Below, one piece after another: positions 14,644-61,145 of a DNA stretch of 64,000 nt (the first letter of the stretch is position 1; every line of letters begins with the position of its first letter). Source of the DNA: Candidatus Pacearchaeota archaeon (GTDB taxonomy: Archaea; Nanobdellota; Nanobdellia; UBA10117; JAFCGI01); NCBI GenBank assembly GCA_017608235.1, contig JAFCGI010000005.1, positions 46,930-110,929 on the forward strand, in the 5' to 3' direction. Position numbers and translations under genes: made by a program. The notes below the pieces were generated by a model. It saw nothing but the letters and a program-made list of their open reading frames with translations. It had not been told where the DNA came from and did no database searches.

Positions 14644-14717
14644 GGGCCTGTAGCATAATCTGGATAGTGCGGGCGGCTTCGGACCGTTTGATGCGGGTTC
14701 AAATCCTGTCAGGCCCT
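14644..14717 (+). tRNA. tRNA-Arg (anticodon TCG)
   Basis: Acceptor GGGCCTG/CAGGCCC; D-arm GCAT..GTGC; anticodon loop CTTCGGA; T-arm GCGGG-TTCAAAT-CCTGT. Folded by eye. Confidence 0.7.
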
Positions 14718-27978: not shown

Positions 27979-28662
27979 ATGAACTTAAGAGAAGCTATAT
28001 CTCAAAAATTGAACTGCGTGTTCAATCGAATATTAGTACCTGGAAACGATAGCTCGTACTCTCTTGATATGCTTTTAGAAGGAATTCCTAAGTTAGAGAA
28101 TAGCAACTTCTTAGAAATAGGTTGCGGAGATAATCCGCTGTTCTCCGACGCATTTTATCACACGCTTTTTTATATGGGACTAAAGAAAGAAGATATTCTA
28201 AAGAAAATGACTTTGTCAGATAAGGAAAATCGGGTTAAAGACATGAATGGAAATAGACATTACGAACCCTCTTGGCCAAAAGAGTTTTCCGATAGATTTG
28301 TAATTGAAGATGCAACAAACTTAGATTTTGGTAACGGACAATTTAATATTGTCGCTGCAGGTCGGCTTTTAAATAATTTAGAGTTTGATGACGACAACGA
28401 TGAGGTTAGTCAAGTACTTGGAGAAATACACCGAATTCTAACTCCGCATGGTTATTTTGTTGGAGATATCCCTTTTTGTAGAGGTAAGCGAATACGAGAA
28501 ATACCTAGGGCGCTAAAAAGCGATATGGGTAAACTCAAAAATTACACAAAAGCAATTGAAGATGCGGGCTTTGAATTTGTAATAAGAGGACTCGGGCAAA
28601 ATAGTTGTATCTATAGAGAACCATTTATTAGAAGTTTATACTTCCAAGCTAAGAAGATTTAG
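27979..28662 (+). CDS. Class I SAM-dependent methyltransferase, cargo gene of the IS element
   Basis: Motif I FLEIGCGDNP. Local GC is noticeably higher than the flanking chromosome. Confidence 0.6.
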   Translation: MNLREAISQKLNCVFNRILVPGNDSSYSLDMLLEGIPKLENSNFLEIGCGDNPLFSDAFYHTLFYMGLKKEDILKKMTLSDKENRVKDMNGNRHYEPSWPKEFSDRFVIEDATNLDFGNGQFNIVAAGRLLNNLEFDDDNDEVSQVLGEIHRILTPHGYFVGDIPFCRGKRIREIPRALKSDMGKLKNYTKAIEDAGFEFVIRGLGQNSCIYREPFIRSLYFQAKKI

Positions 28663-29560
28663 TATTTTCTGCTAATTCTATAAGACTTAACCACTTGTTA
28701 TGACCTAAATTTAGGTGAATTTTAGCTTCTTCCGATGGCGTTTTATCAATTCCTTGATGTCGAGTAATATAATTGTAGTAAATTTCCCAACCTTTTAGTA
28801 TAGATCTTGCACTCTCCACGGAGCCATGAAAACCACGCATAGTTTTTGTTCTTGCTCTTTGACCATTATGCAATCTCTCGATAGGATAATTAAAGCCTTC
28901 ACCTTGACGCGCATTTACTTGGTTATGAAAAACCTTGTAGCGACCAAGTTTGTTGCTATATCCAAACGTCTTTTTAACTACGTTCGTATACGCCATAAAT
29001 CCATCTGTTGTAATAATTTTAATGTTATCTTCACCCTTCTTTTTGATATCAACTAGAACTTTCTTAATCTCTTCTTTGGTGCGAGATTCGGCGTACTGCG
29101 CCGCTACTAAGAACCGCGTTTTAGTATCGATACTATCGATAAACCAATTCTTAGCCACCCCTAAATGCTTTTTAGGATGTTTCCTTCTGTGGTACTCTAC
29201 TTCATCTACTTGAACTTCTTGTCCGAGTTCTGGTTTTAAATTATTAGTAAACTTTGCTATAACTTGAGAATATTTTATAACCCACAAATAGATTGATTTG
29301 TGACTTGATTTGTGAGGATAGAAAGCTTGTAAATGTTCCTGAACTTTCCTTGTAGATATCCCTCTGAAGAATAAATCTAAACAGAGTGTTATTTTCTGTG
29401 GGGAATTTCGCATACGATAGAATGCATCTCTCGGAATAAACTTTTTATCACAGCTTTTGCAATAATATCTCTGTTGCTTTCCATGTGCTTGAGTATGAAA
29501 ATATCCTCTCTTGACTGTGTTTTGTTTCTTACAGTGAGGACATTGTAATTTGCTCTTCAT
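28649..29560 (-). CDS. IS1595-family (ISH4-like) DDE transposase with an N-terminal zinc ribbon
   Basis: N-terminal CPHCKK...CKSCDKKF. The DDE region VQVDEVEY ... ITTDGFMAYT ... and the C-terminal HNGQRARTKTMRGFHGSVESARSILKGWEIYYNY match the IS1595 pattern. Confidence 0.65.
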   Translation of the reverse strand: MKSKLQCPHCKKQNTVKRGYFHTQAHGKQQRYYCKSCDKKFIPRDAFYRMRNSPQKITLCLDLFFRGISTRKVQEHLQAFYPHKSSHKSIYLWVIKYSQVIAKFTNNLKPELGQEVQVDEVEYHRRKHPKKHLGVAKNWFIDSIDTKTRFLVAAQYAESRTKEEIKKVLVDIKKKGEDNIKIITTDGFMAYTNVVKKTFGYSNKLGRYKVFHNQVNARQGEGFNYPIERLHNGQRARTKTMRGFHGSVESARSILKGWEIYYNYITRHQGIDKTPSEEAKIHLNLGHNKWLSLIELAENTKSS

Positions 29561-44077: not shown

Positions 44078-44207
44078 AGCCCCGAGTGGGAGTCGAACCC
44101 ACGACCTGCGGTTATCTTGCCTTTGCTGGTTTCCTTCACCAGCGTTTCTTTCTTGAAGAAAGGCTATGTTACAAGACCGCCGCTCTACCAGACTGAGCTA
44201 TCGAGGC
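44078..44207 (-). tRNA. tRNA-Thr (anticodon TGT) with a roughly 56-nt intron at the anticodon loop
   Basis: Reverse complement: acceptor GCCTCGA/TCGGGGC+T; D-arm GCTCAGTCTGGTAGAGC; anticodon stem GCGGT/ACCGC with loop CTTGTA|intron|A; T-arm GTGGG-TTCGACT-CCCAC. Confidence 0.65.
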
Positions 44208-45894: not shown

Positions 45895-46572
45895 TTATTT
45901 TTCTCCTCTTATTTTACAAAACCCACACTCTTTACTTGCCTTTGGCTCTTTTCCTTGTAAAATTTTAATGGCTTGTTTGAAAACTTTTTCCCCTCTTTTA
46001 GGATCTGTTTTAATTTTAATCAATTTGGTATCAAATATTACTTCTCCTGTTTCTGTAACATGATTAGGATAATAAAACAATAGATAAGTATAGTCTTCTG
46101 TTTGATAACCATTTTCTCTTAATAAGAAATTATAAAGATCCATTTGATTGATATAATGCTCATGAGTATCTTCTTTTAGAGGAAATCCTCTTGTTTTGTA
46201 ATCTAAAACAATTAGTTTCTTTCCTTTCTTTAGAATATTATCTACTGCTCCATGTAATAAAATATTTGATTTTTTGTCTAGTAATTCTATACCCTTAAAA
46301 TTGCTTCTCCAGATTTTTAGTTTTTCTTTATCATTGAATAATTTACATCCATCATTTGCACATTCTTGTTCTTTTAGTTCTGGTGGAAGTTCTCCTTTTT
46401 CCATAAACCTATCAAAATGCTCTTTTAGAACTTTATCCATCCCTGAAGGTAAACTTGGGAATGGTGTGTCTGGTCTTCTTTCTTTTTTAACTAATTGAAG
46501 CCAGAAACATCTAGGACATTCTAGCATTAAATTCAATGAACTTGGTGATATTTTGTATGTTGATTTATTCAT
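45895..46572 (-). CDS. Cas4-like / RecB-family exonuclease with Fe-S cluster cysteines (DUF83 type)
   Basis: N-terminal ISPSSLNLMLECPRCFWL (the Cas4 signature). LHGAVDNI...LIVLDYKT (D, D/ExK), QMDLYNFLL (QxxxY). C-terminal cysteines CGFCK. Confidence 0.65.
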   Translation of the reverse strand: MNKSTYKISPSSLNLMLECPRCFWLQLVKKERRPDTPFPSLPSGMDKVLKEHFDRFMEKGELPPELKEQECANDGCKLFNDKEKLKIWRSNFKGIELLDKKSNILLHGAVDNILKKGKKLIVLDYKTRGFPLKEDTHEHYINQMDLYNFLLRENGYQTEDYTYLLFYYPNHVTETGEVIFDTKLIKIKTDPKRGEKVFKQAIKILQGKEPKASKECGFCKIRGEK

Positions 46573-48893
46573 TTGAATATTATCTCCTTTAATTTTTTAA
46601 TTTCATTTTCATTTAATAGATTTATTCCTTTTGGATTTTGAATTATATCTCCTTTTAATTTAATAAATGGCTTATTTTTTTTATCAAATGTCAATTCTTG
46701 TTTAAAATAGATAACTCCTGAGATAATATCTGTATTTGGATTTGTTTTATGTATTGAATCGTCTTTTCTCGAAGGATATTGATCTATTGTTTTGCCAGTT
46801 TTTTTATCCATAACTAAGGTTAAAGATAAACTTCCAAAGAAGGTATTGATTATTTCATGTTCATCAATAGTTGAACCACTTTTATCTATAACTATAAAAA
46901 TAATATCACTCCTTTTTTTATTTAACATTTCTTTTAGAGTTACATCTGATTTAATCTGTTTTTTAAATTTATTTTTTATTTTTTTAAGAGCTTCATTAGG
47001 CATGGCTACAGCACTATTACTTAATCTTAAATTCTTATTAATTTCAGGTCTTGTAATCTCAAAGTAAATATCTTTATTGAATAAATTTACCTTAAGATCA
47101 AGATTATTGTTTTTTTTATTTGGTGGAAGGGGCTCTATAACCTCAATATGATTATTATCAAACTTATTTATAAAAATAAGTTCACTAAAATAATTCCAAA
47201 ATTTATTTTCATTAAACAAGTTTTGTTTTATATCCTTGACTATATGTTCTTTTTTCTTGAATTTTTCATTTGCTTTTGTCTCAATTATTTTAATGTTCTT
47301 ATTCAATTCATAAAGATAAGCTTTTGGCCAAAATCTACTTCTAACAAAATCTATCTTAAATGCCTTATTTAATTCAGAATCTTTTTCTGAAATTTTAATA
47401 TCTTCAAGAGTTGGTTGTTCATTTTCTCCAAGCCAAATAAGAGGAGTGTATCGCTTTTTGTTTTCTGCTTCTATAATTACCTCTTTTGCAAATTTATACA
47501 AGTTAGTGTATTTTTTGAGATTTTTTTTAATTATATCAAAGTTGTATTTTTCTTTCCTATTTCTCAATTGAGTTAAAAGATTTTCAGCAAAGTTAATTAA
47601 ATAGTCATAATCGTCTTTAGAAAAAGGTTTTTTGTTTTTCCTTTCATTGTATTTATTTTTATTAAACTCGATGAAATTTTTTTCCTTAGATATTTTAATT
47701 AGATTGTCTATAAGTTTAATAATAACATCTTTATTTTTAATATCCTTAAAAATATTTCCAATTAAGACATTATTTAACTCAAAAAATAAATATTTTTCAT
47801 CTTTATTCTTTAGATTAAATTTTAGTATCTGATCCAAAGCATAGCTTATATGGAATTTTGAGAGTGTTTTAAATAAATGAGGTAATGTAACAATATATAA
47901 TTTTGATTTTTTATTTTGGATTCTCTTGTAATTTTCAAGGATATATCTAATAAAAAGTCTATTCTTTTTTACTAATTCCTCAAGTGCCCAGTCAAAATGT
48001 CTTAATTTAAATTCCATATCTTTATTTAACCAATAAATAAACAAATCAGATATTTGTTTATATGGCTGAGGAAACTTCCTTAATACTTCAACGATTTTGT
48101 CTATTATGATATAATCCATATCTTTAGAATATTTAATAAGTTCAAAGATTTGTTTTTGGTTTAATAAGTCTTTATATGTTAACCTATCAAACAATAAATA
48201 AGTAATATTTTTGTCCTTTAGTTTTATTAAATCAAAGAGTTTATTATAAAAATAGTCTTTATTTTTATTAAAAAATATTAAACAAACATTAATGAATTCT
48301 TGCAGTATTTTTTTATCTTGGTTTTTAGATATTTTATCAAAATAAGAATAAGCTTCTTTACTTAGTCTTTGGGATTCATATTTATACAAAATAGCTTTTA
48401 ATATAGAATTAGTTTGTGGATATTCAAGCTTTTTATTTAAAAATTCCTCCAGGATTGAATCATTTTTTACTGAATATCCTCCAAGGATTAAACCAGCCAC
48501 TACCTTAAAATCACTATCTTTAGATTTAGTTATTATCTTCTTATAAAATTGTAGAGCAAATGGTTTATTTTTTCCAATATCTTTTAGTATATTTAGGAAA
48601 GGCCCTTGAGCCATATCTCTTTTTATTTTATTGTTTATTTTTTCTAATAATTCAAGGTATTTATCTGTGTTATCTGCTAACTCATATGTAACAGTAGTAA
48701 TCAATTCAAAATATCCCCAAAAGTCAGAACTAAAGAGAAAATCATCAATTAATTTATATTTATCCTTTTCAGATAGCTTAGATTTATGACTATTGTAAAC
48801 TTTGATTTGTTCTTCAAATTTGTAATATTTACCTTTTAAGTCTTCTTCAAGGCTCATATTCTTGGCACCATCTTCCATTTTTCTTGATTGCAT
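46569..48893 (-). CDS. Large (774 aa) predominantly alpha-helical protein with a distinct C-terminal domain, function unknown; no P-loop found
   Basis: Extremely K/N/I/F/Y-rich and more AT-rich than the neighbouring genes. Start and stop overlap both flanking genes in the operon. Confidence 0.45.
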   Translation of the reverse strand: MQSRKMEDGAKNMSLEEDLKGKYYKFEEQIKVYNSHKSKLSEKDKYKLIDDFLFSSDFWGYFELITTVTYELADNTDKYLELLEKINNKIKRDMAQGPFLNILKDIGKNKPFALQFYKKIITKSKDSDFKVVAGLILGGYSVKNDSILEEFLNKKLEYPQTNSILKAILYKYESQRLSKEAYSYFDKISKNQDKKILQEFINVCLIFFNKNKDYFYNKLFDLIKLKDKNITYLLFDRLTYKDLLNQKQIFELIKYSKDMDYIIIDKIVEVLRKFPQPYKQISDLFIYWLNKDMEFKLRHFDWALEELVKKNRLFIRYILENYKRIQNKKSKLYIVTLPHLFKTLSKFHISYALDQILKFNLKNKDEKYLFFELNNVLIGNIFKDIKNKDVIIKLIDNLIKISKEKNFIEFNKNKYNERKNKKPFSKDDYDYLINFAENLLTQLRNRKEKYNFDIIKKNLKKYTNLYKFAKEVIIEAENKKRYTPLIWLGENEQPTLEDIKISEKDSELNKAFKIDFVRSRFWPKAYLYELNKNIKIIETKANEKFKKKEHIVKDIKQNLFNENKFWNYFSELIFINKFDNNHIEVIEPLPPNKKNNNLDLKVNLFNKDIYFEITRPEINKNLRLSNSAVAMPNEALKKIKNKFKKQIKSDVTLKEMLNKKRSDIIFIVIDKSGSTIDEHEIINTFFGSLSLTLVMDKKTGKTIDQYPSRKDDSIHKTNPNTDIISGVIYFKQELTFDKKNKPFIKLKGDIIQNPKGINLLNENEIKKLKEIIFK

Positions 48894-49634: not shown

Positions 49635-52340
49635 TTATTTTTTATATTCCCTAAAATTTCTCTCTAATTCTTTAAAAGAGGATGGGTGATATTTATCAAA
49701 ACTCTCTTCGTCCACATAAATAAAGTCATATTTAGCCTTTTTCTGAGACTTGTTTAGATCTTCACACCATTGTTTTAATCTCTGCATTTTTAGTGGAACA
49801 TCTAAGTCTTCCTTACCTTTAGTTTCAATTATGAAGATTTCTTTATCTGATTTTTTAACAATAAAATCTGGATAATACTCTGAAATATTTCCATCTTTAT
49901 TTTTATAATCTATTTTAAAATGGACACCAAAATAATTTTTGACGTAAGATACTATCTCCCCTTCTGGACAATTTTCTAAAAAATTAGCAAATCTTAATTC
50001 TAAATCGCTATCTCCTATAATCTTATTAAAGATGCTTTTTTTAGGAACAAGATATCCTTGCTGTTTTACAACAAAAGACCTACATTGACTGAGTTTTATG
50101 TAATTTCTAATTTCTGCTTCTCCTTTATCTTGAACTGTTAAATCATTAATTTCTTTCTTAAAAGTTTCAATTATTGTTCTTGTTGCTTCTATCTCAGATA
50201 GATTTCTTAAAATATTCAAATCTTCTAAGTTAACCTTTTCTTTGAACAATTCATTTTGAATAAAATTCTTGACTTTTTCATATAGAATGTCATAACCACT
50301 AATTAATCTTAATTCCTTCATTATACTTTGAGTAAAAAAACCAATTGCTCCCTGATAATTGATAATGGCATTGCTGTCTAATACTGTTTTATGGTGTGCT
50401 TCTTCCTTAGAATCTTCTTTGTTCACTACATATTTAAAAACAATTTCTTTCTTTTCTTCTTCTGAAAATTTTTGAATGTTTATTTTTTTATGTTTAAATT
50501 TAGAAACTTCTAACTCAGAAAGATTTTTGTATTCTCTGAATATTCTTGGAGTTAAAACAGGAATTTCTATATCTAATTTTTTAAGATTTTTCTTTTTATT
50601 CTCTTTGTCTATTTCAACAACAAGAGGTGTTTTGGCAGGAGTCCTATCTCCCATTTTTCTTTTTTCCAGTTCAACACCTTCATTTTTTATAGACTCAACA
50701 AATTCCATAAAAGCAGGAGTTCCAACAACACTAACATACTCTTCCACATCTTCTCCCCTGTACATTCTTCTTAATCCTCTTCCTAATGTCTGCTCAGGTA
50801 AGATATTGCTTTTTGCTGAATATGCTCTTAATCCAACAATTGTTGTAACATTTTTTACATCCCATCCTTCTTTTAGCATTAAAACAGAAACAATAGCTTT
50901 GTATTTGCTATCCGGATTATCAATATCATTAGCTGCTTTTCTTAATTCTTTTAGTTCTTTTTCTTTTTTTCCAGTCACTGATTCAGAGATTTCTCCATTA
51001 TTTTTAGTATGAATTACTAAAACAGCATCTTTTAGATCTGAATATGTTTCTTCCAAATATTTTTTCACTTCATCACAATTTTTAGTATCATCAGTCATAA
51101 CAAACAGAACTGCTTTTTTCCCAGCCTTTATCTGCTCATTATAAACTTTCTTCCATTCTTCATATCCAAGATGAATAAAGTCCCTATATTTCTCTGTAAA
51201 GTTTGAACTCTTTATTTCATTTAATTTTGCTCTACTTGCTTCATCTGGAACAAGAGGTTTTTTGACTACATCTTGATATATGGCCTCTACCAAAGGATAA
51301 TCAGAAATAGTTTGAACAAAAATTGCTCCATTAACCTGCTTTGGTGTAGCTGTTGTGTCTACTTGTAAAGATACCTTGCTTCCCTTTTGTAAAAGTTTAT
51401 TATGAATATCTTGAAGTGATTTAAACCAAGCCATTCTTTCATCATGTATATGGTGCGCTTCATCATTTAGAATTACTAACTCGTCAACATCTCTCACAAT
51501 CTCACTTAAATCAACTTTAGATTCATTTGTTGGTCCAACTGGTTTTTCTCCTAAAAAATAATCCATAGTATTATCATCTTCAGAAGAAGGAGTTTTTGTT
51601 CTGCTATCAAAAACTCTGTGGATATTTGTTAAAAATATATTTCCTACACTTTTTACAACGTTTGCATCATCCTGAATATATAAAGATAATTGAAAATCAT
51701 CTTGCCAGTTTTGGCCATCAAAACCATTTGGCGGAAGAACTGGATCTTCATAGAATACTCTCAACCCATCGAAGTCAGCTCTTATTCTGTCTAAGACAAT
51801 AATATTTGGAGTAATTATTAAGAAATTTCTTGCTAAATCTGAATCTTCTTCATATAATTTATGAAAATAACTCCATGCTAAGACTAGACTTAGAACTTTT
51901 GTTTTTCCAGAACCAGTAGCCATCTTGATAACAAATCTTCTCCATGTTTCTGCAAACATTCCGGTAGACACTGCACCAGAACTATCATATCTCATTAAAT
52001 CATGTTTATCCTCAACTTTAGCTACTTCATACAAGTAAATTATTGATTCTATTGCTTCTCTTTGGCAAAAATAATATTTGAATAAAGAAATATTTCCTTC
52101 TGAGTCCTCTATAGGATGGTCGGTTTCAAACCACCATTTCAAAAGAGCCTTGCTTGTTTCACTAGCTCCTTCGTAATTTGATTCTCTCCATTTTTTAACT
52201 TCTTTTCTTATTTTATCCACTAATGGAGGCAGAAGTTTTTGATATCCTTCTTCCCTTAATGCTTCATCAGCAGGAAACCATCTAATTGAAGGGTCTAAAA
52301 TATCATGAGGCGATCTTGGGAAATCTTTGTGAAGAGCCAT
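49635..52340 (-). CDS. res: Type III restriction-modification Res subunit (SF2 helicase plus C-terminal endonuclease)
   Basis: Walker A MATGSGKTKV, DEAH box LNDEAHHI, and the C-terminal nuclease motif YYPDFIVKK...FIIETKGKE. 901 aa. Confidence 0.8.
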   Translation of the reverse strand: MALHKDFPRSPHDILDPSIRWFPADEALREEGYQKLLPPLVDKIRKEVKKWRESNYEGASETSKALLKWWFETDHPIEDSEGNISLFKYYFCQREAIESIIYLYEVAKVEDKHDLMRYDSSGAVSTGMFAETWRRFVIKMATGSGKTKVLSLVLAWSYFHKLYEEDSDLARNFLIITPNIIVLDRIRADFDGLRVFYEDPVLPPNGFDGQNWQDDFQLSLYIQDDANVVKSVGNIFLTNIHRVFDSRTKTPSSEDDNTMDYFLGEKPVGPTNESKVDLSEIVRDVDELVILNDEAHHIHDERMAWFKSLQDIHNKLLQKGSKVSLQVDTTATPKQVNGAIFVQTISDYPLVEAIYQDVVKKPLVPDEASRAKLNEIKSSNFTEKYRDFIHLGYEEWKKVYNEQIKAGKKAVLFVMTDDTKNCDEVKKYLEETYSDLKDAVLVIHTKNNGEISESVTGKKEKELKELRKAANDIDNPDSKYKAIVSVLMLKEGWDVKNVTTIVGLRAYSAKSNILPEQTLGRGLRRMYRGEDVEEYVSVVGTPAFMEFVESIKNEGVELEKRKMGDRTPAKTPLVVEIDKENKKKNLKKLDIEIPVLTPRIFREYKNLSELEVSKFKHKKINIQKFSEEEKKEIVFKYVVNKEDSKEEAHHKTVLDSNAIINYQGAIGFFTQSIMKELRLISGYDILYEKVKNFIQNELFKEKVNLEDLNILRNLSEIEATRTIIETFKKEINDLTVQDKGEAEIRNYIKLSQCRSFVVKQQGYLVPKKSIFNKIIGDSDLELRFANFLENCPEGEIVSYVKNYFGVHFKIDYKNKDGNISEYYPDFIVKKSDKEIFIIETKGKEDLDVPLKMQRLKQWCEDLNKSQKKAKYDFIYVDEESFDKYHPSSFKELERNFREYKK

Positions 52341-54508
52341 TATTTATTTCCCCCTTTTAATTCTATAACTTTCGTTGTATCGTTTCCAAAAATATCAACA
52401 ACTTTAATAGCAATTTTTCTTTTTCCAGAAATTTTCCTGAAGGGAGTTTTTAATTCTAATTCTCTATTCTTCTTTGTTCTAAATGACTGCCATTCATTTT
52501 CAAAGATATAATCTCCTGTCCATTTTTCTTCGTATTCTTTTTCAAAATCCAGCTTTCCTGTTTGTTTCTTTTGTTTTTCTATTTTGATTATTTCTTTTTT
52601 GCTTTCAAAATCAAAATCTACTGCCCAATAATCAATCCAGTCAGTCCATTTTTTAGTTAAAACATCCTGTGTAACAATTCCATTTTTATCTTTTGATACC
52701 TTGATTATATTTCCATTCTCTACTACAATTTTATTGCTTCCATTTTTTAAACTGGCTTCAACATGTTTTATTGAATCCTGATTATAGAAAACAGAAAAAT
52801 CAGCTAATTCAATAGCCACGCCATCTTTAATATAATGTGGTGTAACTTCAATATATGAAACATCAGTAAATACAACTTGATTCTTTTCAACTGCTCTTTT
52901 ATCGAATACTTCTCTTGGGATATGTTTTAGTGCTAAATCAACACCTTTGGCTTTTGCTTCTTCTTGAATATGGGGAAATAATCCCATTTCAAATTCAAAT
53001 GCAAGAATGTCAACTTTAGTTATTTTGTTTTTAATTGCTTCCTCGATAGCCTCTTCAATAAATAATCTTCCCACTGGTAAATTTATAGGACCAACTGCAA
53101 CTAATCTATTTAATTTCTTTCCTGAAAAGGTATTATATCCTGTAACTCCCTCTGCTCTGTAAGCATGAAGGATTAGTTTAACAAAATCTTTTTCCTTTTT
53201 TGCTATTTGTTTTTGTTTTTCTTCATCCCTTAAATTTGAATTTACTCCAACATAATGTTGTCTTTCATATTTTCCAAGATTTAATATCTCAAATGCCCTG
53301 AAATCTTTTCCATCTTTTTTTAATTGTCTTTGAACATCAATCATCCTTTTTCTTGTTGTGTGAATTGAGAACTTTCCTAAATCAGAACCAATCCATTTTC
53401 TTCCTAATTTTTCTGCAACTGCTAAGGTAGTTCCTGAACCACAGAAGAAATCGCAGACAATGTCGCCTTCATTTGATGATGCTTTTATTATTCTTTTCAT
53501 CAATTTTTCAGGTTTTTGTGTAGGATAGTCTAATAATTCGCTTACTATTCTTCCAACTGGTGAAATATCTACCCACCAATCTTCTAATTGTTTTCCTTCT
53601 TCCTCAAGAGCTCTCAGTTTCTCTTCACTAGTTTCAGTTGTTCTAAATCCTAAACCTCCCTTACCATGTATGCCAGATTTATGTTTGATTCTTTGGATGT
53701 TAAAATTAGTATTCTCAGATTTAGCATAGAAAAGGATAGTATCATGTTTTCTTGTAAACCCTTTTTTATTTTTTAATGGAGAACTGTAACACCAAATAAT
53801 TTCATTCCTAAAATTCTGTTTTCCAAACACTTCATCCAACAGCAACCTCATATATCCAGAGACTCTCCAATCACAATGAACATAAATACTTCCATCAGGA
53901 GCAAGTAAGTCTCTCATTAGCATTAACCTTTCATACATCATTGCAATAAAACTATCTGCTCCCTTGCCCCACGTATCTCTGTAAGCCAATTCTTCCAAAA
54001 CATTCGGTTGCTTTGTAAATTCATCATCTCCAATATTTATCTTCATAGAGAAATCAGCACCAACATCAAATGGTGGATCAATATAAATTAATTTAATTCC
54101 TCCTTGTTTTTCAATCTCTTCTCTTAATGAACCATTTTTCAAACTTGAGAGAATTAATTTGTTATCTCCCCAAATAAGCTTATTAGTCCATCCTTTTAAT
54201 TGTCTCCCTCTTGTATCTGTTTCAAAATCAATTAAGCTAACTTGTTTTCCTCCCCCTAAACCTTCTTTTCTTGGTTCATCCACTTGTTCAATAACTTGAA
54301 AAGGAAGAACGACATTAGTAACATCTCTAGATTTTCCGTTCCAAACTAATTCAACTTCCCTTTTATCTCCAAATAATAAAAATCTATATTCTTCTGGTAA
54401 GGGAACTCCCTTTTTTAAGAAACTTGTTATATCTCTAATTTCATTGTCAGATAAGACTATTTTGGTTTTTGATTCAAATTTTGATTTAACTTGTTTCTTT
54501 TTAGCCAT
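52340..54508 (-). CDS. mod: Type III restriction-modification Mod subunit (beta-class N6-adenine/N4-cytosine DNA methyltransferase)
   Basis: Motif IV DPPF (IYIDPPFDV) lies upstream of the YPTQKP block and motif I FFCGSGTT. Its stop overlaps the res start. Confidence 0.8.
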   Translation of the reverse strand: MAKKKQVKSKFESKTKIVLSDNEIRDITSFLKKGVPLPEEYRFLLFGDKREVELVWNGKSRDVTNVVLPFQVIEQVDEPRKEGLGGGKQVSLIDFETDTRGRQLKGWTNKLIWGDNKLILSSLKNGSLREEIEKQGGIKLIYIDPPFDVGADFSMKINIGDDEFTKQPNVLEELAYRDTWGKGADSFIAMMYERLMLMRDLLAPDGSIYVHCDWRVSGYMRLLLDEVFGKQNFRNEIIWCYSSPLKNKKGFTRKHDTILFYAKSENTNFNIQRIKHKSGIHGKGGLGFRTTETSEEKLRALEEEGKQLEDWWVDISPVGRIVSELLDYPTQKPEKLMKRIIKASSNEGDIVCDFFCGSGTTLAVAEKLGRKWIGSDLGKFSIHTTRKRMIDVQRQLKKDGKDFRAFEILNLGKYERQHYVGVNSNLRDEEKQKQIAKKEKDFVKLILHAYRAEGVTGYNTFSGKKLNRLVAVGPINLPVGRLFIEEAIEEAIKNKITKVDILAFEFEMGLFPHIQEEAKAKGVDLALKHIPREVFDKRAVEKNQVVFTDVSYIEVTPHYIKDGVAIELADFSVFYNQDSIKHVEASLKNGSNKIVVENGNIIKVSKDKNGIVTQDVLTKKWTDWIDYWAVDFDFESKKEIIKIEKQKKQTGKLDFEKEYEEKWTGDYIFENEWQSFRTKKNRELELKTPFRKISGKRKIAIKVVDIFGNDTTKVIELKGGNK

Positions 54509-54755
54509 TTTTCATCTCTTTAACAGCTTCTTCAGGTCCTTTTAGTTTGTAAAGTCTTATTCTGGAATCTTGAGGATCTAGTCTAGCTTCTAACCAGCCA
54601 TATTTTTTAAGGTCAGAAATGCACAGGCTTACGACCCTCTCATCCTTCTCTTTAAGGGCTTCTATGGCCTGTTTATGGGTAAATTCTTCATTTCTAAATT
54701 TATTCCAAAGTGTTGAATATCTTTTCATAATCCATCGTGGAAGCGGTTCTATCAT
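54501..54755 (-). CDS. Small winged-helix-like protein upstream of and overlapping mod; possible regulator (controller-like)
   Basis: MIEPLPRWIMKRYSTLWNKF...LDPQDSRIRLYKLKG. Start placed at the internal Met; the longer track ORF N-terminus looks spurious. Confidence 0.35.
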   Translation of the reverse strand: MIEPLPRWIMKRYSTLWNKFRNEEFTHKQAIEALKEKDERVVSLCISDLKKYGWLEARLDPQDSRIRLYKLKGPEEAVKEMKNG

Positions 54756-54949
54756 ATTAAGTCCCTCATGTGCATCACATAAGTAATATGTAGTCCTATT
54801 TAAATATATTGTTTTGCATTTTAAGCCAGAAATAAAGTGTATTCTACAGAATAACAATGTTTAAATAGTAGTTATGCTTATTACATAAGTATTATGTATA
54901 TAAAATAAGTATCAAGAGAGACTCTCCGCAAAGATCATCTCTCCTGGTA

Positions 54950-56526
54950 ATGGAGTCCGCGATGAACTCCACAATAGAAAGAATAGAAAAGGAACTTAAT
55001 AAAACTTTTGAGTCTGTTAGTGAGAAATGGATTAAAACCTCTTCTGTTCTTAAAAAATTGAACTTACAATTAATAGAACAAAGACAATCTAAATTCAATC
55101 CAGAAAGCTTAATTAAATTATATCTTTACAGAAGAATAAAAGGCATCCATTATTATGAAAAGTTAATAGAACATTTAGAAAATAATGAAACTGATTCTTA
55201 TGATCTTGGATTTTCAAATGGAAATAATAACAAGTTAGAATTTCCAACAAAAAGAGCATTTAATAAATTCTTCAAAAATAAAATTGATGATAATCTCAAA
55301 TTACAATTAGATAATCTTACTAAAAATATTCTAAGAATAGCAACTCAAAAAGGAATAGTCTTAGATTTAGAATTAGTCAATAAAGCAATAAAAGATAAGA
55401 AAGATAAAAAGAGAGAGAGAAAAGAAAAGCATTTCATGAAGCCACTAAATTGGTAAAGAAATTAGTCTATCCTCAAATTGATATTAAAATTAAAGAGAAT
55501 GGAAAATTTACAACTAAGGATTTATTGGATGTTTTAGTTCATATTGCTTATTCTCATGATTTTACTACAAACGGCTCTTCTACATTCCAGGAATTATATC
55601 CTGACTTAAAAGCTCCTTCTGGAGATTTAATGTTATATCATTTTTCTAAATTGCAATCAGTAGATAAAATAAAAGATATGTTTATTTCAATATTTGATGT
55701 TATTTTTAACTTTGCTAAACAGAATTACAAGCTGTTAAATAGAAGAAAAATAGACATTGCGTTTGATGTCCACAAAATCCCCTATTATGGCAATAAGAAT
55801 GATTTTTATGTAACAGAAGGAAAACATGAAAGAGGAACAACTCACTTCTATCAGTTCTTAACATGCTCAATAGTCGTTGCTGGGCAGAGATTTAGTATTG
55901 ATGCTATTCCTATTCATAAATTTGATAGTATTGAAAATTTAGTAGATCAAAGTTTAGAAAGGGTTAAACAAAAAATTCATATCAATAAAGCATATCTTGA
56001 TAGAGGTTTTGATAAACCAAAAGTAATCAACGTTATCAAAGCTCATAAAGTAAAGTTTATCATGCCAAAAGTTAGAAGTGAAACTGTAAAGGCATGGATG
56101 AGAAAATCTGAGGAATGCAAGGCGAGAGTTATTGAAAACTTTGAAATTGGTAAAGGAGAGAATAAGGCTATTGTGAACTTAATCCTTGTAGATGATGAAG
56201 AAGGGATAAAGAGAGCTTTCATTACTAATTTTCACATTCCTGAACAACTATCACATTATCTTTATAATTGGTATTCAAAAAGATGGGGAATTGAAACAGG
56301 GTACGGGCAGTTTGACCATGATTTTAAAGCAAAAACCACTACTAAGAATTATCACATTAGATTATTCTATTTCTTATTTTCAGTATGTTTGTATAATCTT
56401 TGGGTCTTGGTAAATATTTGTGTTTCTTTATCTCTTCATGGTAGATTGTCAGAAAAGCCAATAATTACATCTAAGTTATTTGCAGTTGTTCTTTACAAAG
56501 TTGCTTATGAAGATCCTCCAACGTGA
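54950..56526 (+). mobile_element. IS4-family (DDE_Tnp_1) transposase gene, split into two overlapping ORFs (54950..55456 and 55450..56526) by a frameshift in an A-rich tract. Terminal inverted repeats not resolved
   Basis: DDE residues in IAFDVH, AYLDRGF and the signature YSKRWGIETGY. Both frames are open across the agaaagataaaaagagagagagaaaagaaaag tract. Confidence 0.6.
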
Positions 56527-58262: not shown

Positions 58263-58397
58263 TGGACCGGTCGGGATTCGAACCCGAGGCCTCTCCATAG
58301 CAATAAATAAGTATTTAACTTAAATATTCATGCCAAGGAAGCGATCTATTGTCCTGCATTGTCTAATGACATAGCAACCGGACTGATCTACCGGCCC
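58263..58397 (-). tRNA. tRNA, isotype unresolved. The precursor is about 135 nt with apparently more than one intron, including one in the D-loop
   Basis: Reverse complement: acceptor GGGCCGG/CCGGTCC+A; T-arm TCGGG-TTCGAAT-CCCGA; D-stem GATC...GATC. An internal TTGCTATG is repeated twice. Confidence 0.45.
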
Positions 58398-58876: not shown

Positions 58877-59773
58877 CTAAATCTCTTTTAAAAATTCTGA
58901 AATAGTTTTTTTATCTAAACTGATTAATGGATAAAATATAGGAATTTTTGAAACTTTCAAAGTGTTTTTTATATTTGTGGTTCCGAGAATAATTGCTTTT
59001 GCATTATATTTCTTGGCAGCTTGTTCTGCAGCTAAAAGTAAGTCTTTGGATTTTATTACTAAAGGTTTAAGTTTCGAACTTGGACTAAATTTCTCAAGAA
59101 GTTTTATATTTTTTAGAAATTCTTTTTCAGAAGTTTCTGAAGTTTTAATGTGCAAAGGAATGATATTAGCTCCTCTTCTTAGCATAAGCCAGGCTGCAAC
59201 CAAGTCTTCCTTTTTTGAGGAAATTAAACAGATTACTTTCCCAGAAACTCCTACAGGTAATCCTTCATGAGCTCTGATTGTCTCAGAAAATAGATGCGCT
59301 TGGTCATCAATTATTTCTATTCCTATTTTTAGACTAGGATTCTTTAATTTTACTGGAGCCTTTGTGTTTTTCTGAATGAATGCTCCAATTTCTCTATCTA
59401 ATTCTAAAGAAGTTTGTTTTAGAGTTTTTGTTACTCTTTTAGATTTTATTGCAAATGTCTTTTTGGAATTTAATTTATTTTGTTTTGCAATCTTTAGGGC
59501 TGTTTTTTTGATATCATTAAGATCAGACTTACAAATTACTGCAGGAGTTATTAAAACAAGTCCAAAAATATTTTTTAGAACTTTAATTGCTTTCTTAGTA
59601 TTTTTTGTTTTGATATAGATTCTAGAATGTTTTTTCTCAAGAGAGAATTCTAAATTATTTTGCTTTAGAGCATTATCTATATTTCTAAGAAGCTGATTTT
59701 CGAATTGGGACCTTGTTCTTTTGCTTTTTAGCATCAATTCTGCAAACTTAAGAATTATTAGTTTATTATCCAT
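58877..59773 (-). CDS. ThiI-like protein: THUMP domain plus a truncated, degenerate PP-loop domain (tRNA 4-thiouridine synthase homolog, possibly inactive)
   Basis: TFAIKSKRVTKTLKQTSLELDREIGAFI matches the THUMP/ThiI region. GKVICLISSKKEDLVAAWLMLRRG aligns with the ThiI PP-loop, but the SGGxDS motif is replaced by SSKKED. Only 298 aa. Confidence 0.5.
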   Translation of the reverse strand: MDNKLIILKFAELMLKSKRTRSQFENQLLRNIDNALKQNNLEFSLEKKHSRIYIKTKNTKKAIKVLKNIFGLVLITPAVICKSDLNDIKKTALKIAKQNKLNSKKTFAIKSKRVTKTLKQTSLELDREIGAFIQKNTKAPVKLKNPSLKIGIEIIDDQAHLFSETIRAHEGLPVGVSGKVICLISSKKEDLVAAWLMLRRGANIIPLHIKTSETSEKEFLKNIKLLEKFSPSSKLKPLVIKSKDLLLAAEQAAKKYNAKAIILGTTNIKNTLKVSKIPIFYPLISLDKKTISEFLKEI

Positions 59774-59828
59774 AGAATATAGTAATTAATATCTATTTAT
59801 AAAAAATTCTAAATATAAAATAAAAAAT

Positions 59829-59990
59829 TTAAAGTAGTTGAGTAGCTACTATAAATCCAATTATAAAACCAATAAGAACACCTTGTATTAATTCCTTCAT
59901 ACCATACTCTATTTCTGCTTGTCTTTCTGCTGCTAATTGTGTTCTTAGAGATCTGACCATTGAACTTGATCTTTTTCGTCTAGTTGCCAT
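59829..59990 (-). CDS. Small tail-anchored membrane protein (53 aa), Sec61beta/SecG-like; not in the ORF track because it is under 60 aa
   Basis: Own translation: MATRRKRSSSMVRSLRTQLAAERQAEIEYGMKELIQGVLIGFIIGFIVATQLL. SD GGGAGG lies 8 nt upstream, overlapping the end of the upstream ORF. Confidence 0.3.
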   Translation of the reverse strand: MATRRKRSSSMVRSLRTQLAAERQAEIEYGMKELIQGVLIGFIIGFIVATQLL

Positions 59991-59992
59991 TT

Positions 59993-60238
59993 TTATTTCC
60001 TCCCTTTACCTGGTAAGGCTTCTTTTAGTTCTATATTTCCTAGTGCCATTAGCATTCCGCCAACGCCATAAAATATTGGGAACATAAGTAATTCACTTCC
60101 AGAAATTAGTGGATAGTTAGCTATCAATAATCTTTCTGCTGCTAATAATGTAAAATAAAGTCCTAATCCTAACCATGTTGCTCCTGTAAATATAAATAAC
60201 AGTCCCAAATATTCGTGTTTCTTCAAATTAGATGCCAT
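59993..60238 (-). CDS. Small membrane protein (81 aa, two TM helices), hypothetical
   Basis: Hydrophobic segments LGLLFIFTGATWLGLGLYFTLLAA and LLMFPIFYGVGGMLMAL. Confidence 0.4.
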   Translation of the reverse strand: MASNLKKHEYLGLLFIFTGATWLGLGLYFTLLAAERLLIANYPLISGSELLMFPIFYGVGGMLMALGNIELKEALPGKGRK

Positions 60239-60383
60239 TTTTAATCTCCTCTTATCTAATTTAATTTAACATATAGCAGTTTAAATAATTGTTTTAGTTA
60301 CGAGAAGTGGTTACAACTACTGATTGTTTAATTAAATTTAAAATCCAAATGTTTTTAAATGAAGTAACATGAAATAGAAACAT

Positions 60384-60509
60384 GGGGCTATGGTGTAGCT
60401 TGGACTATCATCTGTGGTTTGGGACCATAGGACCCAGGTTCAAAGCAACCTTTTGCCTAACAAAGCATTGACGGAAAAATCCGTGGTTGAGAAAGTCCTG
60501 GTAGCCCCA
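60384..60509 (+). tRNA. tRNA-Pro (anticodon TGG) with a roughly 50-nt intron at a non-canonical position in the T-loop (between nucleotides 59 and 60)
   Basis: Acceptor GGGGCTA/TAGCCCC+A. Anticodon stem TGTGG/CCATA with loop TTTGGGA. The T-stem 5' half CCAGG plus TTCAAA is separated by about 50 nt from T + CCTGG. Confidence 0.6.
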
Positions 60510-60632
60510 TTTAAAAATCTTTTTAAAAAACCGCATTAGGAAAGGCCTAAAAAACAAAATATTTATATAGGTGATACGTTTTAATTCTTGCAGACCTTTA
60601 TGTTTAAGGTAAAACTTTGAGAGGTGTATTAA

Positions 60633-60926
60633 ATGGCAAAAAAAAGGAAAAAGAAAGCTGTAATGAAATATTTTGTTTTATTAAAGGGAACTAAAGACAC
60701 AGAGCACGTTTTTGCAAGTAAACAACCAAGAGGCGCTGCTCTAAAAGCTGCTACACGTGGATTCACAGAGATTAAATTACGTGAAAGAGGAACTAATAAG
60801 ATTCATGTATTTAAGGGATCTAGAAAGAAAGTAAGTGCACCAGCAAACGCACCTGACTGGATGCCATCAAAAATCTGGAAATCCAACGTAAAGAAGAAAG
60901 GAATTGAGAGAAAGAAAAAGAAATAA
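60633..60926 (+). CDS. Chromosomal protein MC1 (archaeal non-histone chromatin protein)
   Basis: SKQPRGAALKAATRGF..IKLRERGTNKIHVFKGSRKKVSAPANAPDWMPSKIWKSNVKK closely parallels Methanosarcina MC1 (GKQPRQAALKAANRG..IRLRERGTKKVHVFKAWKE.VDAPKNRPAWMPEKI). SD GAGGTG upstream. Confidence 0.75.
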   Translation: MAKKRKKKAVMKYFVLLKGTKDTEHVFASKQPRGAALKAATRGFTEIKLRERGTNKIHVFKGSRKKVSAPANAPDWMPSKIWKSNVKKKGIERKKKK

Positions 60927-61022: not shown

Positions 61023-61145
61023 GCGGTCGTAGTGTAGTGGTATCACTCAAGCTTGCCATAATCCTTCTTAAGAAGAAGCGTCGGCAGAAGAAAAGACTGT
61101 TGGTTGCAAAGAGCTTGCGACTCGGGTTCAAATCCCGGCGACCGC
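61023..61145 (+). tRNA. tRNA-Gly (anticodon GCC) with a roughly 50-nt intron at the anticodon loop
   Basis: Acceptor GCGGTCG/CGACCGC+A. D-arm GTGTAGTGGTATCAC. Anticodon stem CAAGC/GCTTG with loop TTGCCA|intron|A. T-arm TCGGG-TTCAAAT-CCCGG. Confidence 0.65.

What the first reader, a model, noticed from the sequence alone, without database searches (positions are those of the whole stretch)
60384..60509. tRNA-Pro with an intron in the T-loop (position 59/60), a non-canonical location
The 5' T-stem half CCAGG plus TTCAAA is separated by about 50 nt from the T + CCTGG that completes the T-loop and stem. All other parts are canonical: acceptor GGGGCTA/TAGCCCC, anticodon stem-loop TGTGG-TTTGGGA-CCATA. 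The conserved TTCAAAT T-loop seen in the other tRNAs here is exactly reconstituted by removing the insert. T-loop introns are a hallmark of a few archaeal lineages.
Basis: seen in the sequence. Interest (0 to 1): 0.55.

Follow-up and report, generated by a model that had tools for sequence, protein, structure and literature searches.

The report
tRNA-Pro gene with T-loop intron
This is a real archaeal proline tRNA gene interrupted by a 51-base intron inside its T-loop, a rare but already documented arrangement that many related DPANN archaea share and that standard tRNA finders miss.

Summary
Window 60384-60509 (+) holds a 61-nt 5' exon (tRNA positions 1-59), a 51-nt insert (60445-60495) and a 14-nt 3' exon (positions 60-73). 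ARAGORN and Rfam miss the gene. With the insert removed, ARAGORN calls a clean tRNA-Pro(UGG).

- T-stem as outer helix (5 bp).
- T-loop 54-57 paired with intron bases n-5..n-2 (3 pairs plus one A·A mismatch).
- Two 3-nt bulges carrying the splice sites.
- A 5-bp inner intron helix.

In a scan of species-representative genomes, 36 of 89 related tRNA-Pro(UGG) genes carry an insert (16-123 nt) at the same point. All are from Woesearchaeota/Nanoarchaeota-type DPANN MAGs. The BHB shows compensatory changes. One uninterrupted gene is 75/75 identical to the joined exons of an interrupted one.

Position 59/60 is a published non-canonical site, including in vitro cleavage in ARMAN-2. So this is a new member of a known kind, useful mainly for annotation. 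Two more tRNAs in the window (Glu, Ala) have D-loop introns. Splicing itself is inferred, not shown.

The parts
60352..60360 (+). TATA-like box TTTTTAAAT, 24-32 nt upstream of tRNA position 1 (putative archaeal promoter)
   Evidence: A near-identical box sits at the same distance upstream of tRNA-Arg (cTTTTTAAATc) and tRNA-Lys in this window. This is a shared motif only and the genome is AT-rich, so the evidence is weak.
60384..60444 (+). 5' exon, tRNA positions 1-59: acceptor 5' strand 60384-60390, D-arm, anticodon arm with anticodon TGG at 60420-60422, 4-nt variable loop, T-stem 5' strand CCAGG 60434-60438, T-loop 54-59 TTCAAA 60439-60444
   Evidence: ARAGORN cloverleaf of the spliced sequence. 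It is 41-56 of 61 identical to the 87 of 90 genome-collection tRNA-Pro(UGG) matches that have a 61-nt exon.
60439..60442 (+). 5' strand of the BHB central helix H (U54 U55 C56 A57)
   Evidence: It pairs with intron bases 60493-60490: U-A, U-A, C-G, then an A·A mismatch. The same helix is 98.6% paired across 35 distinct orthologue junctions.
60443..60445 (+). 5' splice-site bulge A58 A59 | G; predicted cut between 60444 and 60445
   Evidence: This is a 3-nt bulge in the strict register between H and h'. The cut after the second bulge base is the established BHB rule, the same geometry as the canonical 37/38 intron.
60445..60495 (+). 51-nt intron GCAACCTTTTGCCTAACAAAGCATTGACGGAAAAATCCGTGGTTGAGAAAG
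   Evidence: It has no ORF and no Rfam match. Reading the sequence shows no C/D box motifs (no TGATGA, no CTGA).
60446..60450 (+). Inner helix h', 5' strand CAACC
   Evidence: It pairs with GGTTG at 60485-60489 and forms in the unconstrained MFE. The equivalent helix in orthologues shows compensatory changes at all 4 scored pairs.
60471..60484 (+). Internal intron hairpin ACGGA-AAAA-TCCGT
   Evidence: It is present in the MFE fold. It contains TTGACGGAAA, which is also found in the D-loop intron of tRNA-Glu.
60485..60489 (+). Inner helix h', 3' strand GGTTG
60490..60493 (+). 3' strand of central helix H (A G A A). The first A faces A57 as a mismatch.
   Evidence: Thirty-five of the 36 orthologues have TGAA, CGAA or a variant here that gives 4 standard pairs. 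One (L070) shares the window's AGAA.
60494..60496 (+). 3' splice-site bulge A G | U60; predicted cut between 60495 and 60496
   Evidence: AG|T is the commonest 3' junction among the orthologues.
60496..60509 (+). 3' exon, positions 60-73: T60, T-stem 3' strand CCTGG 60497-60501, acceptor 3' strand TAGCCCC 60502-60508, discriminator A 60509. CCA is not encoded.
60510..60524 (+). T-runs (TTT, then CTTTTT) directly after the gene, a putative archaeal oligo-T terminator
   Evidence: Similar T-runs follow the other tRNA genes. The genome is AT-rich, so the evidence is weak.

Best explanation
Window 60384-60509 is the functional tRNA-Pro(UGG) gene of an AT-rich (~30% GC) DPANN archaeon of the Woesearchaeota/Nanoarchaeota type. 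A 51-nt protein-spliced (BHB) intron interrupts it between T-loop positions 59 and 60.

Proposed mechanism:
1. In the precursor, T-loop bases 54-57 do not form a T-loop. They pair with the intron's 3' end.
2. The T-stem (outer helix), this short central helix and an inner intron helix then present two 3-nt bulges on opposite strands. This is geometrically the same arrangement as the canonical 37/38 intron, moved from the anticodon arm to the T-arm.
3. The archaeal splicing endonuclease EndA cuts after the second base of each bulge (after 60444 and after 60495).
4. An RtcB-type ligase joins the exons and restores the T-loop TTCAAAT. CCA is added afterwards.

Shown here: the anatomy, the ability to form the motif, conservation and covariation of the motif in orthologues, and the need for this anticodon. 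Inferred from established knowledge of archaeal tRNA splicing: the cleavage and ligation steps and the enzymes, which are not encoded in this window.
For: 1. The spliced sequence is a clean tRNA-Pro(tgg).
2. An unbiased BHB-splice scan of the window recovers exactly this intron with h=5, H=3, h'=5.
3. The explicit cloverleaf plus BHB structure lies only 2.7 kcal/mol above the unconstrained MFE, -40.7 vs -43.4. The MFE already contains the T-stem, a 7+7-nt internal loop and h'.
4. Of 89 resolved tRNA-Pro(UGG) genes retrieved from species-representative genomes, 36 have an insert of 16-123 nt at the same 59/60 point, all in the same BHB register.
5. On the junction alignment, 91% of cells are paired against 24.6-60.9% when partners are slid. 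H is 98.6% paired. Pair 57:n-5 is A-U in 28, G-C in 4 and G-U in 1. All four h' pairs carry compensatory changes. The covariation score is 0.288 against 0.097 in shuffles, with 0 of 500 shuffles reaching it.
6. Natural spliced control: the uninterrupted gene in L088 is 75/75 identical to the joined exons of L022, which has a 31-nt intron.
7. Each of the 90 assemblies gave only one match, so no second intact copy with a similar 5' exon was seen in the interrupted genomes.
8. CCA is 120 of 276 proline codons in 16 confident genes of the window, so a UGG anticodon is needed.
9. The host is archaeal: split RpoB, RpoA', EF-2, GatD/GatE and MC1. It is rich in tRNA introns, with 8 of 12 tRNA genes in the window interrupted.
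10. L033, a Woesearchaeota MAG, has the same neighbours (ThiI-like at 40% identity, an 81-aa membrane protein at 63%) next to a tRNA-Pro with a 37-nt 59/60 intron.
11. Published precedent: 59/60 is a listed archaeal intron site (PMC4090602). An ARMAN-2 59/60 intron was cleaved in vitro, and ARMAN-2 tRNA-Pro(GGG) has introns at 53/54 and 59/60 (PMC3239211).
Against: - There is no RNA-level evidence of transcription or splicing.
- The central helix here has an A57·A mismatch, giving 3 rather than 4 pairs. Only one orthologue (L070) shares this, so cleavage may need an endonuclease that tolerates slightly relaxed motifs.
- EndA and RtcB were not found in the 64-kb window, so their type is unknown for this genome.
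- The closest exon relative found (L039, 6 differences) has no intron.
- No closer relative carrying the same 51-nt intron could be found.
- Only 64 kb of the genome is visible, so a second intact tRNA-Pro(UGG) elsewhere cannot be excluded for this organism.
- The precursor's overall fold is not unusually stable (z = -1.86).
Confidence: 0.9

Rival explanations
1. It is a tRNA pseudogene. A once-intact tRNA-Pro gene was broken by a 51-nt insertion in the T-loop, is no longer processed to a working tRNA, and another gene supplies tRNA-Pro(UGG).
For: Standard tRNA finders reject it. The central BHB helix has a mismatch. The nearest relative by exon sequence is uninterrupted. Only 64 kb of the genome could be examined.
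Against: - The exons are flawless, with 7/7 acceptor pairs, 5/5 T-stem pairs and all conserved T-loop bases.
- The insert ends are exactly those needed for a BHB in register.
- The same insertion point with covarying BHB helices recurs in 36 species-level genomes. That would not be maintained in dead genes.
- No second copy matched the 5'-exon pattern in any of those genomes.
- CCA codons are abundant.
- A promoter-like box identical to that of tRNA-Arg lies at the usual distance.
Confidence: 0.05
2. It is a genuine BHB intron, and in addition it belongs to a family of related, possibly mobile introns that have spread between different tRNA genes and positions (D-loop, anticodon loop, T-loop) in this genome, as proposed for Thermoproteales. 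This adds to the best explanation and does not replace it.
For: - The Pro T-loop intron and the tRNA-Glu D-loop intron share an exact TTGACGGAAA (0 of 3000 dinucleotide shuffles reach the score).
- The Glu and Thr(TGT) canonical introns are similar (3/3000).
- Pro and the Glu canonical intron share GCAACCTTT...AAAGC-TTGAC (93/3000).
- Intron presence is patchy among near-identical exons, for example L022 vs L088. This shows recent gain or loss.
- Precedent for intron transposition in Thermoproteales is summarised in PMC4090602.
Against: - The matches are short (9-10 nt).
- 45 pairs were compared, so only two pairs remain marginally significant after correction.
- The introns are A/G/T-rich and are constrained by the BHB at their ends.
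- Pro introns in other genomes differ widely in sequence and length. That fits ordinary divergence as well as it fits mobility.
Confidence: 0.2
3. It is a chance juxtaposition of tRNA-like fragments, or an assembly artefact, and not a gene.
For: None beyond the failure of ARAGORN and Rfam to call it unspliced.
Against: - A 61-nt and a 14-nt segment reconstitute a complete tRNA.
- Of about 71,000 BHB-like sites in the window, only those at real tRNA loci yield tRNAs.
- The same architecture occurs in 36 independent assemblies from many studies.
Confidence: 0.01

Closest known systems
Archaeal BHB introns at non-canonical position 59/60, e.g. ARMAN-2 (Ca. Micrarchaeum) pre-tRNA-Cys(GCA) 59/60 and pre-tRNA-Pro(GGG) 53/54 + 59/60 (Fujishima et al. 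2011, PMC3239211). 59/60 is listed among known sites in Yoshihisa 2014 (PMC4090602).
   Same: The insertion point is the same, between T-loop positions 59 and 60. The logic is the same, with T-loop bases pairing with the intron to build a bulge-helix-bulge. The superphylum (DPANN) and the amino-acid family (Pro) match one of the ARMAN-2 examples. The ARMAN-2 tRNA-Pro(GGG) introns were also described as strict hBHBh'.
   Different: The lineage differs (Woesearchaeota/Nanoarchaeota type, not Micrarchaeota), as does the isoacceptor (UGG). This intron is longer (51 nt against 13 nt in the ARMAN-2 tRNA-Cys substrate). The motif here is nearly strict hBHBh' with one A·A mismatch, while the tested ARMAN-2 tRNA-Cys substrate was a relaxed hBH. 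The cleaving enzyme in ARMAN-2 is the ε2 type, and the enzyme for this genome is unknown.
Canonical archaeal tRNA intron at 37/38 with an hBHBh' motif
   Same: The geometry is identical. A 5-bp stem acts as outer helix, the first four loop bases pair with intron bases n-5..n-2, there are two 3-nt bulges, and the cuts fall after the second bulge base. Position 59/60 in the 7-nt T-loop is the exact counterpart of 37/38 in the 7-nt anticodon loop. Five or six other tRNAs in this window have such introns.
   Different: It sits in the T-arm, so the precursor cannot form the T-loop or the T-loop/D-loop elbow until it is spliced. Covariance models and ARAGORN, which allow inserts only in the anticodon loop, miss it.
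Multiple and non-canonical tRNA introns of Thermoproteales and Thaumarchaeota (Sugahara and Fujishima studies, as summarised in PMC4033280, PMC4090602 and PMC8450103)
   Same: A high fraction of tRNA genes is interrupted (8 of 12 in this window). Introns lie in the D-loop and T-loop. There are two introns per gene (Glu, Ala). There are hints of related intron sequences in different tRNAs.
   Different: The host is an AT-rich DPANN archaeon and not a TACK archaeon. According to PMC5829648, DPANN lineages carry α4-type EndA with an L3 loop insertion, not the (αβ)2 type with the crenarchaeal loop. The tRNAscan-SE 2.0 BHB models were trained on Cren-/Euryarchaeota and Thaumarchaeota, not on DPANN (PMC8450103).

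Membership tests
Archaeal protein-spliced (BHB) tRNA intron, non-canonical position 59/60 | Removing the insert reconstitutes a complete tRNA with all stems and conserved loop bases | tested here: met
   ARAGORN calls the spliced sequence tRNA-Pro(tgg), with 7/7 acceptor pairs, 5/5 T-stem pairs and the T-loop TTCAAAT.
Archaeal protein-spliced (BHB) tRNA intron, non-canonical position 59/60 | hBHBh' motif: two 3-nt bulges on opposite strands separated by a 4-bp helix and flanked by outer and inner helices, with the splice sites inside the bulges | tested here: met
   h = CCAGG/CCTGG (5 bp). H = UUCA/AGAA (3 standard pairs plus A·A). Bulges are AA|G and AG|U. h' = CAACC/GGUUG (5 bp). The feature is met with one mismatch in H, so the motif is slightly relaxed. 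The structure lies 2.7 kcal/mol above the MFE.
Archaeal protein-spliced (BHB) tRNA intron, non-canonical position 59/60 | Insertion between tRNA positions 59 and 60 | tested here: met
   The 5' exon ends with T-loop TTCAAA (54-59) and the 3' exon starts with T60 followed by the T-stem. Shifted junctions would give TTCAAGT, which does not match the intact orthologues, whose T-loops read TTCAAAT or TTCGAAT.
Archaeal protein-spliced (BHB) tRNA intron, non-canonical position 59/60 | Motif conserved with compensatory changes in orthologous genes | tested here: met
   36 orthologues were compared. H is 98.6% paired, with A-U to G-C double changes at 57:n-5 in 4 sequences. All 4 h' pairs are compensatory. 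No shuffle of 500 reaches the covariation score (0.288 vs 0.097), and pairing falls to 24.6-60.9% when partners are slid.
Archaeal protein-spliced (BHB) tRNA intron, non-canonical position 59/60 | Host is an archaeon that encodes EndA and an RtcB-type ligase | tested here: inconclusive
   The host is clearly archaeal (split RpoB, RpoA', GatD/GatE, MC1). Neither EndA nor RtcB was found among the window ORFs scanned. The rest of the genome is not available.
Archaeal protein-spliced (BHB) tRNA intron, non-canonical position 59/60 | The intron is actually excised and the exons ligated in vivo or in vitro | not testable with these tools
   This needs RNA sequencing or an EndA cleavage assay. The nearest proxy is an intact gene identical to one orthologue's joined exons.
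Self-splicing group I or group II intron in a tRNA gene | Ribozyme core of a few hundred nucleotides or more, recognisable by covariance models | tested here: not met
   The insert is 51 nt. No Rfam family matches at gathering score or at E<=10 in 60300-60600.
Split or permuted tRNA gene | The tRNA halves are encoded at separate loci or in permuted order | tested here: not met
   Both exons are collinear on the same strand, 51 nt apart.
Intron-hosted box C/D sRNA (as in some euryarchaeal tRNA-Trp introns) | C (RUGAUGA) and D (CUGA) boxes inside the intron | tested here: not met
   Reading the 51-nt intron shows no TGATGA and no CTGA. There is no Rfam snoRNA hit over the intron.

The most novel reading that the evidence does not exclude
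The 59/60 intron of tRNA-Pro(UGG) is an old trait that has not been catalogued. It spans much of the Woesearchaeota/Nanoarchaeota-type DPANN radiation and is repeatedly lost but otherwise maintained. In this genome it belongs, together with the D-loop and anticodon-loop introns, to one family of related introns that move between tRNA positions. This would extend Thermoproteales-style intron transposition to DPANN archaea, whose endonuclease is of a different type.
Probability: 0.2. Interest if true: 0.5.

Novelty: new member of a known kind. Interest (0 to 1): 0.3.

Why it matters
The main value is practical. In this one 64-kb window, general-purpose tools either miss or misread three of twelve tRNA genes (Pro-UGG, Glu-CTC, Ala-GGC) because their introns lie outside the anticodon loop. 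Genomes of this clade will therefore look as if they lack essential tRNAs. Kaneta et al. 2018 (PMC5829648) already flagged incomplete tRNA sets in DPANN.

There is a modest evolutionary point as well. I found no description of the 36-genome distribution of a 59/60 intron in tRNA-Pro(UGG) in the searchable literature. Its covarying BHB and its presence or absence between identical exons make a clean natural data set for studying tRNA intron gain and loss. It could also be used to define what the DPANN endonuclease must recognise.

It does not change the understanding of how tRNA introns work.

Tried and rejected
- ARAGORN (default and with its intron option) and Rfam (gathering score and E<=10) on the unspliced locus gave no tRNA call. 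This shows a tool limitation and is not evidence against the gene.
- An exact-protein look-up of the adjacent MC1 gene to find the source or sister contigs found nothing on record.
- Two metagenome pattern scans found nothing: one for the window's own T-arm plus intron end, one for its exon sub-clade.
- My first forced-BHB fold used indices that were off by one and enforced a C·A pair. I discarded it and redid it correctly.
- The search for EndA, RtcB or archease in the window used a regex for the EndA catalytic motif and Pfam on 39 ORFs. None was found.
- Brute-force removal of every possible second intron from tRNA-Ala followed by ARAGORN was not discriminating, because ARAGORN accepts too many variants. 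That intron's boundaries are left unresolved.
- The BHB-splice scan of the 90 fetched loci found T-loop junctions only in tRNA-Pro. The loci were chosen through that gene and hold few other tRNAs, so the result says little about other tRNAs.
- I considered and rejected a self-splicing intron, a split or permuted gene, a box C/D sRNA host intron and chance (see the membership table).
- Taxon and synteny were adequately shown by L033 and the labels of the fetched loci, and the verdict would not change.

Full report
**1. What is in the sequence**

Window 60384-60509 on the + strand reads GGGGCTA-TG-GTGT-AGCTTGGACTA-TCAT-C-TGTGG-TTTGGGA-CCATA-GGAC-CCAGG-TTCAAA, then 51 nt, then T-CCTGG-TAGCCCC-A.
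- The 5' segment (60384-60444, 61 nt) covers tRNA positions 1-59.
- The 3' segment (60496-60509, 14 nt) covers positions 60-73.
- The acceptor stem pairs 7/7 and the T-stem 5/5. The anticodon is TGG (60420-60422).

Joining the two segments gives a T-loop TTCAAAT, as in six other tRNAs of this window. ARAGORN in both modes and Rfam at gathering score and at E<=10 do not report the gene. After in-silico removal of 60445-60495, ARAGORN calls a normal tRNA-Pro(tgg).

**2. Is there a bulge-helix-bulge motif?**

The established geometry for archaeal introns is as follows.
- The last two 5'-exon bases plus the first intron base form one 3-nt bulge.
- The last two intron bases plus the first 3'-exon base form the other bulge.
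- The four exon bases before the first bulge pair with intron bases n-5..n-2. This is helix H.
- An outer helix h and an inner helix h' flank the motif.

For a 7-nt loop closed by a stem, this puts the intron after the sixth loop base. That is 37/38 in the anticodon loop and 59/60 in the T-loop. The window fits this register:

| Element | Sequence |
|---|---|
| h | CCAGG/CCUGG |
| H | U54-A, U55-A, C56-G, A57·A |
| Bulges | A58 A59 \| G and A G \| U60 |
| h' | CAACC/GGUUG |

The unconstrained MFE already shows the T-stem, a 7+7-nt internal loop and h'. Forcing the cloverleaf plus H and h' costs 2.7 kcal/mol (-40.7 vs -43.4). An earlier forced fold had an indexing error and should be ignored. 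The motif is therefore present, with one mismatch in the central helix.

**3. Specificity control**

I scanned both strands of the window for relaxed BHB-like sites and found about 71,000. I spliced each one and asked ARAGORN for a tRNA spanning the junction. Calls arose only at the Rfam/ARAGORN-detected tRNA genes and the tRNA-Glu, tRNA-Ala and tRNA-Pro loci interpreted here. At this locus there was one call, with intron 60445-60495.

**4. Orthologues**

I scanned the species-representative genome collection with a relaxed pattern for the tRNA-Pro(UGG) 5' exon, ending at position 59 and not requiring any insert. It returned 90 loci from 90 different assemblies. None is identical to the window.
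- In 53 loci the T-arm closes at once.
- In 36 loci it closes only after an insert of 16-123 nt placed exactly after position 59.
- One locus runs off its contig.

The 36 interrupted genes come from these MAG labels:

| Label | Number |
|---|---|
| Woesearchaeota | 20 |
| 'uncultured Methanosarcinales' | 11 |
| Nanoarchaeota/Nanoarchaeia | 3 |
| 'archaeon' | 2 |

Some of the 'Methanosarcinales' MAGs have introns nearly identical to Woesearchaeota ones, for example L063 vs L020. All Hadarchaeota, Thermococcus, DHVE2, Aenigmatarchaeota, Micrarchaeota, Iainarchaeum and Pacearchaeota hits are uninterrupted.

In every interrupted gene, intron bases n-5..n-2 pair with T-loop 54-57. They read TGAA where the loop is TTCA. 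They read CGAA or CGGA in four of the five cases where the loop is TTCG.

I built a fixed-register junction alignment (A1, 37 sequences, 35 distinct) and counted pairs:
- 91% of cells are paired, against 24.6-60.9% when partners are slid.
- H is 98.6% paired.
- Pair 57:n-5 is A-U in 28 sequences, G-C in 4, G-U in 1 and unpaired in 2.
- All four scored h' pairs carry compensatory changes.
- The covariation score is 0.288 against 0.097 in shuffles, with 0 of 500 shuffles reaching it.

The sequences are related, so the shuffle count overstates independence. The slid controls and the variety of intron sequences argue the signal is real. Fifteen of the 37 mini-precursors form H in their unconstrained MFE.

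**5. A natural spliced control**

The uninterrupted gene in L088 is 75/75 identical to the joined exons of L022, which carries a 31-nt intron. The predicted splice product thus exists as an intact gene in a related genome. Intron presence also differs between genomes with identical exons, so there has been recent precise loss or gain. The window's nearest uninterrupted relative is L039, with 6 differences.

**6. Host and context**

The window is about 30% GC. It encodes split RpoB, RpoA', EF-2, EF-1α, GatD/GatE, AspRS, FtsZ and an MC1 chromatin protein directly downstream of the tRNA, so it is core archaeal chromosome.

L033 (Woesearchaeota MAG CAYGVN010000027) has the same neighbours next to its tRNA-Pro: a ThiI-like protein at 40% identity and an 81-aa membrane protein at 63%. 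Its tRNA-Pro carries a 37-nt 59/60 intron. There the tRNA points the other way relative to those genes.

Other supporting context:
- A TTTTTAAAT box lies 24-32 nt upstream of the gene, as for tRNA-Arg and tRNA-Lys, and T-runs follow the gene.
- CCA is 120 of 276 proline codons in 16 confident genes, so this anticodon is needed.
- EndA and RtcB were not found in the window.

**7. Comparison with what is known**

- Position 59/60 is listed among known non-canonical archaeal intron sites (PMC4090602).
- In ARMAN-2, also a DPANN archaeon, a 59/60 intron in pre-tRNA-Cys was cleaved in vitro by the ε2 endonuclease. Its tRNA-Pro(GGG) has introns at 53/54 and 59/60 (PMC3239211).
- Kaneta et al. 2018 report that DPANN lineages, including a Woesearchaeota and a Pacearchaeota genome, have α4-type EndA with an L3 loop. 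This is associated with more disrupted tRNA genes, and some DPANN tRNA sets remain incomplete (PMC5829648).
- The BHB models of tRNAscan-SE 2.0 were trained on Cren-/Euryarchaeota and Thaumarchaeota introns (PMC8450103).
- A 2026 preprint on 208 complete Nanobdellota genomes discusses missing Trp and Val tRNAs but not T-loop introns (10.64898/2026.05.13.725050).

I found no paper in the searchable library that describes the tRNA-Pro(UGG) 59/60 intron of this clade. The feature is a new member of a known kind.

**8. Other things seen**

The window holds 12 tRNA genes, and 8 of them are interrupted.
- tRNA-Glu(CTC), 14721-14874, has a 34-nt D-loop intron (14742-14775) and a 47-nt canonical intron (14793-14839). 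Both tools missed it. The doubly spliced sequence is a clean cloverleaf.
- tRNA-Ala(GGC), on the minus strand at 58397 to about 58263, has a 29-nt D-loop intron and a second insert at or next to the anticodon loop. The boundaries of that second insert are not resolved.
- The long introns of the window share short sequence modules. Pro T-loop vs Glu D-loop gave 0 of 3000 shuffles. Glu vs Thr canonical gave 3 of 3000. Forty-five pairs were compared. This hints at related intron families but is not established.

**9. Verdict**

The most likely mechanism is EndA cleavage at a T-arm BHB followed by RtcB-type ligation, with confidence about 0.9. The anatomy and comparative support are shown here, and the enzymatic steps are inferred. 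Interest is modest (0.3). The phenomenon is documented. The clade-wide distribution and the annotation gap are the useful parts.

Noticed in passing
window 14721-14874 (+): tRNA-Glu(CTC) with two introns: a 34-nt D-loop intron (14742-14775, between T20 and A21; H = TCCG/CGGA, no adjacent outer helix, so a relaxed motif) and a 47-nt canonical 37/38 intron (14793-14839; h5 H4 h'3). It lies 3 nt after tRNA-Arg. ARAGORN and Rfam do not report it. The doubly spliced sequence gives a clean ARAGORN cloverleaf.
   Followed up: yes
window 58263-58397 (-): tRNA-Ala(GGC) with the G3:U70 pair and two inserts. One is a 29-nt D-loop intron (58377-58349; H = GTCC/GGAC). The second, of about 32 nt, is at or next to the anticodon loop. 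A 39/40 splice gives a fully paired anticodon stem and a better BHB than 37/38, but this is unresolved. ARAGORN miscalled the gene as tRNA-Leu(aag) and Rfam missed it.
   Followed up: partly
whole window (tRNA genes at 14644, 14721, 23937, 27681, 30016, 44000, 44078, 57709, 58263, 58766, 60384, 61023): There are twelve tRNA genes in 64 kb. Eight are interrupted and three of those have introns outside the anticodon loop. General-purpose tools missed or misread three of the twelve.
   Followed up: yes
window 60445-60495 vs 14742-14775, 14793-14839, 44078-44207(-), 61059-61111: Introns of different tRNAs share short modules. Pro T-loop and Glu D-loop introns share an exact TTGACGGAAA (0/3000 shuffles). 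Glu and Thr(TGT) canonical introns share CCTTTCTT..AAGAAAGAAA (3/3000). Pro and the Glu canonical intron share GCAACCTTT...AAAGC-TTGAC (93/3000). Forty-five pairs were compared. This may reflect related or mobile intron families.
   Followed up: partly
window 44078-44207 (-): tRNA-Thr(TGT) has an insert of about 56 nt in the anticodon loop for which my scan found no BHB in the strict register. It may be a relaxed motif. The gene lies 3 nt upstream of tRNA-Val(TAC), so the two are probably co-transcribed.
   Followed up: no
loci L009, L011, L024, L028, L029, L036, L047, L063, L065, L079, L090: MAGs labelled 'uncultured Methanosarcinales' carry the same interrupted tRNA-Pro(UGG) as Woesearchaeota MAGs. 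Some introns are nearly identical, for example L063 vs L020 and L047 vs L018. The taxonomic label of these records is probably wrong.
   Followed up: partly
L033 about 1036-2646 vs window 58877-60509: The neighbourhood is conserved (ThiI-like gene, 81-aa membrane protein, tRNA-Pro). However, the tRNA gene is co-oriented with its neighbours in L033 and divergent from them in the window, so the tRNA appears locally inverted.
   Followed up: no
L022 vs L088: Two species-level genomes have identical tRNA-Pro(UGG) exons (75/75), one with a 31-nt 59/60 intron and one without. This is a clean case of recent precise intron loss or gain.
   Followed up: partly
window 49635-56526 and 28649-29560: Mobile and defence-type genes sit beside the tRNA cluster. 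They are a ResIII helicase-like protein (49635-52340), an N6/N4 DNA methylase (52340-54508), a DDE transposase (55450-56526) and a second transposase-like ORF (28649-29560).
   Followed up: no
window 60633-60926 (+): A 97-aa MC1-family chromatin protein (Pfam E = 8.7e-28) is encoded 124 nt downstream of the tRNA-Pro gene. No identical protein is on record in the large assembly collection.
   Followed up: partly
window 9800-12883 (+) and 46569-48893 (-): Two large ORFs (1027 aa and 774 aa) have no Pfam match at all.
   Followed up: no
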